Part shown: in pieces, positions 2,760 to 59,362 of the stretch
Layout: every line of letters begins with the position of its first letter
How positions within the stretch are numbered: the first letter of the stretch is position 1
Assembly (NCBI GenBank): GCA_964410735.1
Contig: CAYPIF010000025.1
Location: 1 to 59,362 of the forward strand
Length of the DNA: 59,362 nt
Direction: 5' to 3'
DNA from: an uncultured Thermoplasmatales archaeon
GTDB lineage: Archaea; Thermoplasmatota; E2; DHVEG-1
Made by a program: the position numbers and the translations under genes
Notes under the pieces: generated by a model
Told to the model about the DNA's origin: nothing
What the model saw: the letters and a program-made list of their open reading frames with translations, nothing else
Databases searched by the model: none

Positions 2760-3134
2760 ATGTTGAAAAGTGTCTATGTTGCCATTGGTACTATTTCTCT
2801 TGTTATTGGTATAGTAGGAGTTGTTGTACCGTTGCTTCCAACCACCCCATTTTTACTTCTTTCTGCAGGATGTTACGCAAAAGGTTCTGAAAGGGTATAT
2901 CGTTGGTTTATCAATATTAGATGGATAGGCAAAAATATTCAGAATTACAATGAAGGAAAAGGTATTTCAGTTCGAGGAAAAATCATTTCAATATTGTTTT
3001 TGTGGACTACAATCATCATTTCAATGTTTGTTATATGGTCTAATTTCTTTGTACAAGTGTTATTGTTTGTTATCGCTGTAAGTGTGACTTACCATATTCT
3101 TAGCTTAAAGACAATGAAGAACGAGTTATGTTAA
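2760..3134 (+). CDS. YbaN/DUF454 family membrane protein
   Basis: GVVVPLLPTTPFLLLSAGCYAKGS signature. Confidence 0.9.
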   Translation: MLKSVYVAIGTISLVIGIVGVVVPLLPTTPFLLLSAGCYAKGSERVYRWFINIRWIGKNIQNYNEGKGISVRGKIISILFLWTTIIISMFVIWSNFFVQVLLFVIAVSVTYHILSLKTMKNELC

Positions 3135-3277
3135 AAAATGGATTATGTTTTTTCATTGATGAATTCATACTCAGATTACAAATCGAGATATTTTTTGAGA
3201 AAACAGTTATTCATAAAACTTGTAGTAAATTCTATTAGATAGATTTATTACCAATTGTATACTATATTTTTCTAAAT

Positions 3278-20118: not shown

Positions 20119-20192
20119 GGGCTCGTAGCTTAGTCTGGTGGAGCGACTGGCTCATAACCAGTTGGTCGCAGGTTCAAATCCTGCCGGGCCCA
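20119..20192 (+). tRNA. tRNA with CAT anticodon, probably tRNA-Ile2
   Basis: Acceptor GGGCTCG/CGGGCCC-A, anticodon arm ACTGG-CTCATAA-CCAGT, T-loop TTCAAAT, T-run terminator; Ile2 identity inferred from the GGGC acceptor type. Confidence 0.92.
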
Positions 20193-32764: not shown

Positions 32765-32839
32765 TAGCGGGGAGTGGATTCGAACCACTGGTCTACGGGT
32801 TATGGGCCCGTCGGGATCTCCTGGCTACCCCACCCCGCT
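32765..32839 (-). tRNA. Initiator tRNA-Met (CAT)
   Basis: A1-U72 acceptor AGCGGGG/CCCCGCT-A, three G-C pairs at the base of the anticodon stem, loop CCCATAA. Confidence 0.95.
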
Positions 32840-48714: not shown

Positions 48715-48787
48715 GCCCTGGTAGTGTAGTGGCCTATCATCCAAGCCTGTCGAGCTTGGGACCCGGATTCGAATTCCGGCCGGGGCG
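48715..48787 (+). tRNA. tRNA-Asp (GTC)
   Basis: GCCCTGG/CCGGGGC-G acceptor, CAAGC-CTGTCGA-GCTTG anticodon arm, T-run terminator. Confidence 0.96.
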
Positions 48788-58358: not shown

Positions 58359-58718
58359 TTATAATTCACCTCTTCAATATAATATTTTCTTTTTCCGCCT
58401 TTATATACATTTTCATTACTTTAAAAATTACTGTATTAATTTTCAAAGAAATGAAAAGGAGGGCAGAAATGCAATGGTATTTTTGGAGGAAATATTTTTT
58501 GTGTTAAAAATTAGCCCCATTAAAATTAAAAAAAATTGCTTACACCCAGATCTTTAAAAAAAATTCAAAAAATAATTATATATAAAAGAATCATGAAATA
58601 TACCATAAAACAAGACAAACCACCCATGATAATAAGGGAAAAACACATCAAAAATTAAATGCTCAAATATATGAAAATCATTAAACCAAAAAAAAATTCA
58701 AAGTGAAGATTAGGATGG

Positions 58719-58942
58719 TTTGACAGCGTACCGAGAGCTTTTAGGTTTCAAGCAGTGAAGTTTACCGCGGAAGAATTCCGAAGAACTCAACCGAAGCTCT
58801 CCACCTAGCCCAAAAGTTCCAGCCCCGTGAGGGGTAATGCTCCCATGGGCTCGCGCACCATAGTACGAAAGATTACGCAGGTAGGCTTAACTGCCGGGTT
58901 CGGGATGAGACCGGGTGTATCCCCACCGCTTTGACCGTCAAA
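58719..58942 (-). rRNA. rrf: 5S rRNA with about 106-nt insertion
   Basis: CACCCGGUCUCAUCCCGAACCCGGCAGUUAAGC, CGUAC, GCGCGAGC conserved blocks; terminal helix UUUGACGG/CUGUCAAA; exact ends approximate. Confidence 0.93.
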
Positions 58943-59000
58943 CCATCTTAAAGAACTTCAACTTATGCAATGACATCACATGCAACCTGTTTAACGATTG

Positions 59001-59362
59001 AGTCAGAAAACGAGCTTTTAGTAGCTACGGGCTGAACATGTCGCCCGAAAGCTTCATGCGTACACCCTAGCTCTATCAAACGGGTCTTATACCCGGGCTC
59101 TATGATGCCTCTTTTTAAGGTGGGCTTCATGCTTAGATGCTTTCAGCATTTATCCCTTACAGCGTGGCTGCCCAGCGCTGCCCTGTCGGACAACTGGTAA
59201 ACTAGTGGCTGCAGACCCCTGTTCCTCTCGTACTAAGGGGTCTTTCCCCTCAGGCATCAAACACTTCTAGAAGTTAGCAACAAACCTGTCTCACGACGGT
59301 CTAAACCCATCTCACGATCCGCTTTAATAGGCGAACAACCTCACCCTTGGCAGCTGCTGCAC
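59001..59362 (-). rRNA. rrl: 23S rRNA, 3' end (truncated by window)
   Basis: Sarcin-ricin loop AGUACGAGAGGAAC, GGGUUUAGACCGUCGUGAGACAGGU, CUGAAAGCAUCUAAGC; 3' boundary approximate. Confidence 0.98.

What the first reader, a model, noticed from the sequence alone, without database searches (positions are those of the whole stretch)
58719..58942. Supersized 5S rRNA: structured 106-nt insertion near the 3' end
Seen: the 5S gene spans about 224 nt between its terminal helix strands (extended pairing GAUGGUUUGAC/GUCAAACCAUC). The canonical fold is complete through helix V (GUAAU pairs with AUUAC at 58838-58834). Deleting 58728-58833 (106 nt, boundary ambiguous by about 3 nt because UAC is repeated) gives ...GGGAGCAUUAC-GCUGUCAAA, a normal 5S of about 118 nt. 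The insert is GC-rich relative to the flanks and folds: CCCC-UCAC-GGGG hairpin, 8-bp GAGAGCUU/AAGCUCUC stem, GAGUUC-UUCG-GAAUUC tetraloop hairpin, GCGGU/ACUGC hairpin. Known: Halococcus morrhuae retains a 108-nt insertion in a similar 3' region of its mature 5S, and such expansions are rare. Inference: an independently evolved expansion segment in a non-haloarchaeal lineage, or a processed intervening sequence. It lies directly after 23S, so it is probably the functional copy. Standard annotation would truncate it.
Basis: partly seen in the sequence, partly recalled or inferred. Interest (0 to 1): 0.9.

Follow-up and report, generated by a model that had tools for sequence, protein, structure and literature searches.

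The report
Double-length 5S rRNA in Thermoplasmatota archaea
The only 5S ribosomal RNA gene of this uncultured sediment archaeon carries a conserved, folded 106-base extra domain, which is also found in about a hundred related species, so nearly double-length 5S RNA, known until now only from a few salt-loving archaea, is not confined to them.

Summary
The 5S gene on the minus strand spans about 58719-58942 (224 nt). Rfam finds only 58825-58942 and mispairs helix I.

- **Where the insert sits.** It is 106 nt long. Covariation places it at 58731-58836, inside the 3' strand of helix V, three base pairs from loop A. This makes a four-way junction with a short hairpin and a long arm, P0-Pa-loop-Pb-Pc-Pd(UUCG).
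Two of the four proposed stems are not supported.
- **Only 5S gene.** This is the only 5S in the genome. In the family, all 55 genomes with a 5S carry the insert, including three single-contig genomes.
- **Distribution.** A homologous insert at the same site occurs in three more Thermoplasmatota families. It was not found in the other families searched.
- **RNA evidence.** Metatranscriptome contigs from three studies run from the core into the insert. No spliced joint was seen.
- **Closest known case.** The 108-nt Halococcus-type insertion has the same helix, size and shape. Published surveys covered RefSeq genomes only.

Verdict: a retained expansion segment and a new member of a known kind. 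Homology with the haloarchaeal insert is untested.

The parts
58719..58942 (-). Whole expanded 5S rRNA gene, about 224 nt. The 5' end is as in the Rfam model. The 3' end is set by pairing with the 5' end.
   Evidence: An RNA-library contig ends at 58720 next to adapter-like letters (a weak hint).
58943..58947 (-). 5' flank that extends helix I by pairing with 58714-58718. Probably a precursor processing stem.
   Evidence: Columns 4-8 with 237-241 covary.
58714..58718 (-). 3' flank partner of the extended helix I.
58837..58942 (-). Canonical 5S core: helix I 5' strand, helices II and III, helix V 5' strand (GUAAUC at 58876-58871), loop E, helix IV, and the distal 3' strand of helix V (58839-58837).
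   Evidence: RF00001 alignment. Covariation in helices I, II, III and IV.
58731..58836 (-). The 106-nt expansion segment, with boundaries set by covariation.
   Evidence: Model R1 scores 108.6 bits here and this is the only hit in the genome..
58823..58834 (-). Short hairpin h1 (CCCC-UCAC-GGGG). Its first C is the C of the 'pre-insert UAC'.
   Evidence: Columns 117-121 with 126-130 are 96.8% paired and 2 pairs show changes on both sides. The first pair is CG 94, GU 3, AU 1, CU 1 in 99 sequences and GC in 14 of 14 sequences of family f43.
58818..58822 (-). 5' strand of P0, the closing helix of the long arm. It pairs with 58731-58736.
   Evidence: pairs 131-224 CG 34/38, 132-223 UG 38/38, 134-220 GC 37/38, 135-219 paired in 35/38; the middle pair is weak. 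In f43 the equivalent 6-bp helix shows compensatory changes (alignment, read by eye).
58731..58736 (-). 3' strand of P0.
58809..58816 (-). 5' strand of Pa. It pairs with 58738-58745.
   Evidence: helix 8: 6 of 8 pairs show changes on both sides and 78% of cells are paired. The middle is an internal loop in many species.
58738..58745 (-). 3' strand of Pa.
58806..58808 (-). 5' side (CUA) of the sequence-conserved asymmetric internal loop.
   Evidence: Invariant in 38 of 38 sequences. YUA is kept in all four families.
58746..58753 (-). 3' side (GCUUGAAA) of the conserved internal loop.
   Evidence: Invariant apart from one Y position. GYYUGAAR is kept in the four families, with one UUUAAA variant.
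58799..58805 (-). 5' strand of Pb. It pairs with 58754-58760.
   Evidence: helix 9: 100% of cells paired and 3 pairs show changes on both sides.
58754..58760 (-). 3' strand of Pb.
58764..58797 (-). Pc and Pd with the apical UUCG loop. The hairpin GAGUUC-UUCG-GAAUUC lies at 58788-58773.
   Evidence: helix 10: 8 of 13 pairs show changes on both sides and 95.7% of cells are paired.
58728..58730 (-). Post-insert UAC, the proximal 3' strand of helix V. It pairs with G58876 U58875 A58874.
   Evidence: columns 75-77 with 225-227 are paired in 114 of 114 cells, and pair 77-225 is AU 34 / GC 4. AU 82, GC 15, GU 2 in 99 sequences.
58719..58727 (-). One linker G (58727) and the 3' strand of helix I.
   Evidence: helix 1.
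58688..58696 (-). Run of nine U on the RNA strand, 23 nt after the 5S. Probably the operon's terminator.
   Evidence: Sequence. That archaeal terminators are oligo-T tracts is recalled, not tested.
58998..59362 (-). 3' end of the 23S rRNA, cut by the window end.
   Evidence: RF02540, 364 bits, model positions 2622-2987.

Best explanation
This is a true expansion segment of 5S rRNA. A 106-nt domain is built into the 3' strand of helix V, three base pairs above the loop A junction. It turns that point into a four-way junction from which a short hairpin and a long unbranched arm project. The canonical 5S core is left intact. The domain is transcribed with the 23S-5S operon and stays in the mature RNA of about 224 nt (partly shown). 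It is then expected to sit on the solvent side of the central protuberance, as the Halococcus insertion does (inferred).

The helices vary by compensatory changes. By contrast, an asymmetric internal loop (YUA opposite GYYUGAAR) and the apical CUUCGG loop keep their sequence across four families. The arm is therefore most likely a docking site for a protein or another RNA element rather than neutral ballast (inferred).

The module is old. It occurs in at least four families of uncultured Thermoplasmatota, and its divergence tracks that of the 5S core.
For: **Anatomy**
- RF00001 matches at 74.1 bits with a mispaired 3' end. The true closing strand lies 106 nt further on.

**Structure, on 38 distinct sequences**
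- 95.3% of 2659 cells are paired and 34 of 70 pairs show changes on both sides.
- 0 of 500 shuffles reach any of the five measures. Slid controls give 35-45% paired.
- The fold of the insert alone equals the covariation model, with z = -3.1.

**Site**
- The third base of the helix V 5' strand covaries with the post-insert triplet: AU 82, GC 15, GU 2 of 99. With the pre-insert triplet 12 of 99 are unpaired.
- The last base of the pre-insert triplet covaries with the end of hairpin h1: CG 94, GU 3, AU 1, CU 1, and GC in 14 of 14 in family f43.

**Only copy**
- There is 1 RF00001 hit in the window's genome.
- In family f1, 55 of 107 genomes have a 5S. All 56 hits abut an insert hit.
- The single-contig genomes G013, G019 and G067 have one 5S each, with the insert.

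**Distribution**
- f1: 57 of 107, plus the window's genome.
- f9: 5 of 13.
- f41: 1 of 1.
- f43: 29 of 44 with filters on. A further 6 of 6 unmatched 5S loci on long contigs carry the insert with filters off.
- None in f2 (0/8), f3 (0/2), f4 (0/25), f6 (0/32) or f8 (0/4).
- Outgroup 5S genes are normal, at 80-113 bits.

**RNA libraries**
- Records with 31 or more letters on both sides of the core-insert junction: X1 records 2 and 3, X2 records 17 and 18, and X11 record 15.
- X2 record 17 covers 58722-58901 without a difference.
- There were no joints among the 134 records laid.

**Age**
- Core and insert identities between families fall together: f1-f9 0.78/0.65, f1-f41 0.81/0.66, f1-f43 0.76/0.50.
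Against: - The RNA evidence comes from assembled contigs of metatranscriptomes. They cannot show ends or levels, they drop rare variants, and DNA carry-over is not excluded (cautions).
- The 3' junction cannot be bridged by 31 letters, because only 12 core bases follow the insert.
- There is no evidence that the long form is the one in ribosomes.
- One f43 genome (G335) also has a normal 5S at 101.8 bits, on a 2.7-kb contig.
- In f43 the three proximal helix V pairs are poorly paired under either model, 20 of 42 cells.
- The middle of Pa is mismatched in many f1 sequences, and the middle pair of P0 is paired in only 18 of 38.
- No function is shown. uL18 open frames are no longer in f1 (168-195 aa, leaving out one 67-aa frame cut at a contig end) than in families without the insert (145-189 aa).
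Confidence: 0.85

Rival explanations
1. The 106 nt are an intervening sequence that is removed from the transcript. Either it is spliced and ligated (an archaeal intron), or it is cut out without ligation, leaving a fragmented 5S.
For: Removing it leaves a normal 5S, and a 3-nt direct repeat (UAC) flanks it. Archaeal rRNA introns and bacterial rRNA intervening sequences exist (recalled). Contigs cannot exclude a minor spliced form.
Against: - No joint was found among 134 RNA-library records, while records from three studies run through the core-insert junction.
- By inspection, no 3-nt bulge / 4-bp helix / 3-nt bulge can be drawn at the borders without breaking pairs that covary (h1 first pair and helix V proximal pairs).
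- Internal loops far from the borders are invariant across families. A discarded spacer would not need that.
- The Halococcus insert at the same site is retained in mature RNA (passages of PMC7812874 and PMC7530397).
Confidence: 0.08
2. This copy is a silent or decaying 5S gene, and a normal 5S elsewhere serves the ribosome.
For: Stepanov and Fox describe expanded 5S genes and pseudogenes beside normal copies in some bacteria. G335 has a normal 5S on a short contig. The window's genome is a 110-contig draft.
Against: - It is the only RF00001 hit in the genome and in three single-contig relatives.
- 55 of 55 f1 genomes with a 5S carry only insert-bearing copies.
- The gene is 23S-linked.
- Core and insert both evolve by compensatory changes.
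- RNA-library contigs match it exactly.
Confidence: 0.03
3. The insert is an assembly chimera or a misjoin.
For: MAG contigs often break or misjoin in rRNA operons (general knowledge).
Against: The same architecture appears in 99 species-level genomes and in 120 or more metagenome contigs. It also appears in RNA-library contigs from three studies. The sequences diverge in step with compensatory changes.
Confidence: 0.005

Closest known systems
Halococcus-type 5S rRNA expansion segment (Halococcus, Halalkalicoccus, Halomarina, Halodesulfurarchaeum; Luehrsen 1981, Stepanov & Fox 2021, Tirumalai 2020)
   Same: - It lies in the 3' strand of helix V, between loop E and the three-helix junction. The published position is 104.1-105, 'the sole identified archaeal insertion site'.
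- It is 108 nt against 106 nt here (100-111 nt in relatives).
- It is an 'asymmetric V' with a short hairpin and a long unbranched arm with internal loops, and it forms a four-way junction.
- It is the only 5S type in the cell (passages read).
   Different: - The phylum differs: Thermoplasmatota, not Halobacteriales. The habitat is non-hypersaline sediment.
- Sequence homology could not be tested, because no Halococcus sequence was reachable.
- The exact E. coli-type position number was not assigned here.
- In haloarchaea the distal stem-loop is reported as the most conserved part. Here the most conserved parts are an internal loop and the apical tetraloop.
Bacterial 5S expansion segments (Thermoanaerobacterium and others; Stepanov & Fox 2021)
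   Same: Extra, internally paired modules in an otherwise intact 5S core, overlooked by annotation.
   Different: Bacterial inserts sit at other sites (helix III bulge, loop C, helix IV and others). They measure 13-109 nt, often coexist with normal copies, and are scattered among strains. Here the insert is one site, one module, and fixed across families.
Supersized 23S expansion segments of Asgard archaea (Penev et al. 2020, PMC7594248; seen in the search listing only)
   Same: A large lineage-specific rRNA expansion in uncultured archaea, recognised from metagenomic sequence.
   Different: A different molecule (23S, not 5S) and a different lineage. That paper was not read here beyond its listing.
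Archaeal rRNA introns with a bulge-helix-bulge (recalled)
   Same: An insertion in an archaeal rRNA gene whose removal restores the standard molecule.
   Different: No bulge-helix-bulge fits the borders, no joined form was seen in RNA libraries, and the inner sequence is conserved.

Membership tests
5S rRNA (Rfam RF00001) | Scores above the family's gathering threshold | tested here: met
   74.1 bits against a threshold of 38, model positions 1-120. The last 12 model positions are wrongly placed in the insert.
5S rRNA (Rfam RF00001) | Helices I-V are present and kept by compensatory change | tested here: met
   Helices I, II, III and IV, and helix V in two parts, are 87-100% paired. Changes on both sides occur in helices I, II, III, IV and the proximal part of V.
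5S rRNA (Rfam RF00001) | Placed at the end of an rRNA operon | tested here: met
   The 23S 3' end is 55 nt upstream. The arrangement is the same in L077 and L078.
Prokaryotic 5S expansion segments (Stepanov & Fox 2021) | An insertion of 13 nt or more in an otherwise intact core, internally base-paired | tested here: met
   106 nt. There are 33 internal pairs in model R1 and 38 with P0. Covariation.
Prokaryotic 5S expansion segments (Stepanov & Fox 2021) | Retained in the RNA, not excised | tested here: inconclusive
   RNA-library contigs from three studies bridge the core-insert junction and no joint was seen. Contigs cannot show ends or levels or exclude DNA, and no ribosome data exist.
Halococcus-type archaeal 5S insertion | Site in the helix V 3' strand between loop E and the junction (positions 104.1-105) | tested here: met
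   The insert lies 3 bp above the junction in the helix V 3' strand. Exact numbering was not verified, so there is an uncertainty of 1-3 nt.
Halococcus-type archaeal 5S insertion | About 108 nt, with a short hairpin and a long unbranched arm | tested here: met
   106 nt. The fold is h1 plus P0-Pa-Pb-Pc-Pd.
Halococcus-type archaeal 5S insertion | Sequence homology with the haloarchaeal insert | not testable with these tools
   No Halococcus sequence could be fetched. Among 56 distinct full-length metagenome sequences none had a core unlike the four Thermoplasmatota families.
Halococcus-type archaeal 5S insertion | Host in Halobacteriales | tested here: not met
   All 40 named records are Thermoplasmatota-type MAGs.
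Archaeal bulge-helix-bulge intron | A bulge-helix-bulge at the exon-intron borders | tested here: not met
   By inspection only. A 4-bp UACC/GGUA helix can be drawn, but it has no flanking 3-nt bulges with outer helices, and it conflicts with covarying pairs 117-130 and 75-77/225-227.
Archaeal bulge-helix-bulge intron | A joined (spliced) form is present in RNA | tested here: not met
   No joints among 134 records in 4 RNA libraries. Contigs show presence, not absence.

The most novel reading that the evidence does not exclude
The Thermoplasmatota module and the Halococcus-type insertion are one and the same ancient 5S domain. It would be shared across two archaeal phyla by descent with many losses or by old lateral transfer. 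Its sequence-invariant internal loop (YUA opposite GYYUGAAR, with possible G.A and U.A non-Watson-Crick pairs) would be a specific docking site on the central protuberance, for example for a K-turn-type RNA-binding protein such as L7Ae or for a lineage-specific factor.
Probability: 0.3. Interest if true: 0.85.

Novelty: new member of a known kind. Interest (0 to 1): 0.68.

Why it matters
Large insertions in archaeal 5S rRNA were known only from a handful of haloarchaeal genera. The published survey (RefSeq genomes only) names one archaeal site and one order.

- **Wider range.** The same kind of nearly double-length 5S is fixed in at least four families and 99 species-level genomes of uncultured Thermoplasmatota from sediments. 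It is therefore not tied to life in high salt.
- **Data for structure and function.** The set gives more than 100 diverse sequences with strong covariation. That is enough to define the fold, to find the conserved loop that may be functional, and to test whether the two inserts share an origin.
- **Annotation.** Covariance-model pipelines call a 118-nt 5S with a wrong 3' end in all these genomes.
- **Evolution.** The patchy distribution raises a testable question of repeated precise loss against old transfer of an rRNA domain.

Tried and rejected
**Structure and sequence checks**
They are 75% and 80% paired, and one pair is unpaired in 30 of 38. They clash with Pb (100% paired) and Pc/Pd, so they were rejected as the main fold.
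- The model in which the pre-insert UAC closes helix V was rejected.
- A covariation scan for a partner of the linker and tail found only the model's own pairs at the top.
- Rfam at E up to 1 gives only a 19.4-bit CRISPR-DR37 match on hairpin h1, against a threshold of 40. This is taken as chance.
- The insert is not a repeated element: it has 1 hit in its own genome.
- Plasmids: 34 records match, and none match beyond query position 110. There is no insert homologue.
- uL18 open frames show no extension in insert-bearing genomes. uL5 was not checked.

**Literature**
- Four searches found no paper in the held library on a Thermoplasmatota 5S insert.
- Supplements of PMC7812874 (tables and figures S1-S7, sequence files) could not be seen. 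They may hold the haloarchaeal sequences needed for the homology test.
- The lineage names (perhaps Marine Benthic Group D or relatives) are only my guess and were not tested.

**Parts without cover**
- In all four RNA libraries no record lay on 58650-58719 (downstream DNA) or on 58944-58985 (the 23S-5S spacer). Cover resumed at about 58986 in the 23S.
- X7 covered only the 23S part.
- An X1 record ends at 58720 next to the letters GCTCTTCCGATC, which I recall as the tail of an Illumina adapter.
They are not used as evidence.
- Depth figures were not used to rank parts.

**Tool and script problems**
- The script failed with a division by zero and was fixed.
The string was regenerated and accepted.

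Full report
**What is in the window.** The end of the window carries, on the minus strand, the last 365 nt of an archaeal 23S rRNA (58998-59362, RF02540, 364 bits). A 5S rRNA follows 55 nt later.

Rfam reports the 5S as a complete 118-nt match, 58825-58942 at 74.1 bits. Its alignment shows that the last dozen model positions are forced onto unrelated sequence, with several non-standard pairs in helix I. The true partner of the 5' strand lies 106 nt further on. GAUGGUUUGAC (58947-58937) pairs perfectly with GUCAAACCAUC (58724-58714).

Insert G+C is 0.52, against 0.57 in the core, 0.22 downstream and 0.34 in the spacer. A run of nine U follows 23 nt after the gene.

**Conservation.** The locus is the only RF00001 match in the window's genome, which has 110 contigs and is 94.5% complete.
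- A DNA search of 40 relatives found the whole expanded gene at 80-86% identity in most genomes of the same family. Other families matched only over the canonical part.
- A pattern scan of one genome per prokaryote species found 40 loci. All are in MAGs labelled Thermoplasmatota, Thermoplasmatales, Thermoplasmata, or generically Euryarchaeota or Methanobacteriota. Three of the 40 records are titled as MAG chromosomes.
- From these I assembled 38 distinct full-length sequences.

**Fold.** The structure counted on alignment A1 has 95.3% of 2659 cells paired, and 34 of 70 pairs show changes on both sides. None of 500 shuffles reaches any of the five measures. Sliding the 3' partners by 1-3 columns drops pairing to 35-45%.

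The insert consists of these elements:
- a 2-nt linker;
- a short hairpin h1;
- a long arm made of P0 (closing helix) and Pa;
- an asymmetric internal loop, CUA opposite GCUUGAAA;
- Pb, which is 100% paired with three compensatory pairs;
- Pc and Pd, capped by UUCG, with 8 of 13 pairs compensatory.

The strongest covarying column pairs found without any model are exactly these. The minimum-free-energy fold of the insert alone is the same structure, with z = -3.1.

They are only 75-80% paired across species and clash with Pb and Pc.

**Exact site.** UAC occurs at both borders, so two placements are possible.
- In 113 sequences (38 + 19 + 56), the third base of the helix V 5' strand pairs with the post-insert triplet in 99 of 99 sequences of the f1/f9/f41 type (AU 82, GC 15, GU 2). 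With the pre-insert triplet 12 are A.C.
- The last base of the pre-insert triplet covaries with the last base of hairpin h1: CG 94, GU 3, AU 1, CU 1, and GC in 14 of 14 sequences of family f43. There the alternative would give G.G in all 14.
- Normal 5S genes of neighbouring families align their helix V 3' strand with the post-insert sequence.

The insert (58731-58836) therefore interrupts the 3' strand of helix V three pairs above loop A and creates a four-way junction. In f43 the proximal pairs are poorly defined, with 20 of 42 cells paired.

**Distribution.**
- A covariance model of the insert (R1) hits the window's genome once, at 108.6 bits.
- In the order (118 genomes) it hits 57 of 107 genomes of family f1 plus the window's own genome. 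It hits 0 of 8 in f2 and 0 of 2 in f3.
- RF00001 on the same genomes hits 55 of 107 in f1. All 56 hits abut an R1 hit on the same contig. The two extra R1 genomes have a 5S cut by a contig end or masked by N.
- Three single-contig genomes have exactly one 5S, with the insert.
- The four f2 genomes with a 5S have normal genes at 85-113 bits.
- Samples of the class and phylum add family f9 (5 of 13), f41 (1 of 1) and f43. In f43, 29 of 44 match with filters on. Nine further genomes have a 5S but no R1 hit. I fetched the unmatched 5S of 6 of these 9, plus the second 5S of G335. With filters off the six loci carry the insert and the G335 locus does not.
- Nothing was found in f4 (0/25), f6 (0/32), f8 (0/4) or about 40 other families of the phylum sample.
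- In the new families the insert sits at the same place of a 23S-linked 5S.
The 56 distinct full-length sequences all resemble these four families at 78% identity or more.
- Core and insert identities between families fall together. This speaks for long co-residence rather than recent spread. Vertical descent with repeated precise loss, or early transfer, remains open.

**Is it kept in the RNA?** Twenty runs held part of a 763-nt query, 17 of them on record as RNA. I laid four metatranscriptomes from four studies on 58650-59050.
- Records with at least 31 letters on both sides of the core-insert junction occur in three libraries: X1 records 2 and 3, X2 records 17 and 18, and X11 record 15.
- X2 record 17 matches 58722-58901 without a difference. 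X1 record 1 matches 58720-58826 without a difference.
- No joint was reported among the 134 records laid.
- The 3' junction cannot meet the 31-letter rule, because only 12 core bases follow the insert.
- These are contigs. They show presence, not ends, levels or absence of a minor form, and DNA in the libraries is not excluded.
- Together with the invariant internal loop and tetraloop, which a discarded spacer would not need, and the Halococcus precedent, I put retention at about 0.85.

**Comparison with what is known.** Stepanov and Fox (PMC7812874; abstract, Results and passages of the Discussion read) surveyed 1046 archaeal RefSeq genomes.
- They found expanded 5S only in Halobacteriales, at one site (104.1-105), between loop E and the three-helix junction.
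- The insert there is 108 nt and shaped as an asymmetric V, with a short hairpin and a long unbranched arm.
- Tirumalai et al. (PMC7530397; abstract and passages) saw a four-way junction and a flexible protrusion by cryo-EM.

The present insert has the same helix, nearly the same size and the same shape, but sits in another phylum. I could not reach a haloarchaeal sequence, so homology is untested. No paper in the held library mentions a Thermoplasmatota 5S insert. uL18 open frames do not differ between insert-bearing and other families.

**Verdict.** This is a real, conserved expansion segment of 5S rRNA, most likely retained.

Noticed in passing
L078 (G245:C128) about 3020-3240, against 470-700: There is a second copy of the 3' part of the expanded 5S. 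It runs from helix IV through the insert and helix I 3' strand, plus about 100 nt of downstream flank, and lies 2.5 kb after the complete gene. It has no 5' half. It is either a segmental duplication or a 5S fragment pseudogene.
   Followed up: partly
G335:C155:331-446 (L221): One f43 genome has, besides its insert-bearing 5S (C46), a normal 5S at 101.8 bits without the insert, on a 2.7-kb contig. It may be a binning contaminant or a true second gene.
   Followed up: partly
G055 (C26 and C42; also L037 and L039 from one MAG record): Two different insert-bearing 5S genes occur in one genome. Both have G instead of C at the first position of h1, with a matching U at its end. This could mean two operons or two strains in the bin.
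   Followed up: no
window 58808 with 58746 (last pair of Pa), and the same columns in L076-L096: The pair next to the conserved loop is C opposite A in f1 and f41, and U opposite G in f9 and most of f43. This is the pattern expected for isosteric wobble pairs (alignment, read by eye).
   Followed up: no
window 58818-58839 (+): Weak Rfam match of hairpin h1 to CRISPR-DR37, 19.4 bits against a threshold of 40. I take it as a chance match to a GC hairpin.
   Followed up: yes
window 20119-20192 (+), 32765-32839 (-), 48715-48787 (+): Three tRNA genes found by Rfam. They were not examined.
   Followed up: no
L080 (G100:C1:657981-659088): The 5S core of this single-contig genome reads N (withheld bases), so RF00001 misses it while the insert model still hits.
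   Followed up: yes
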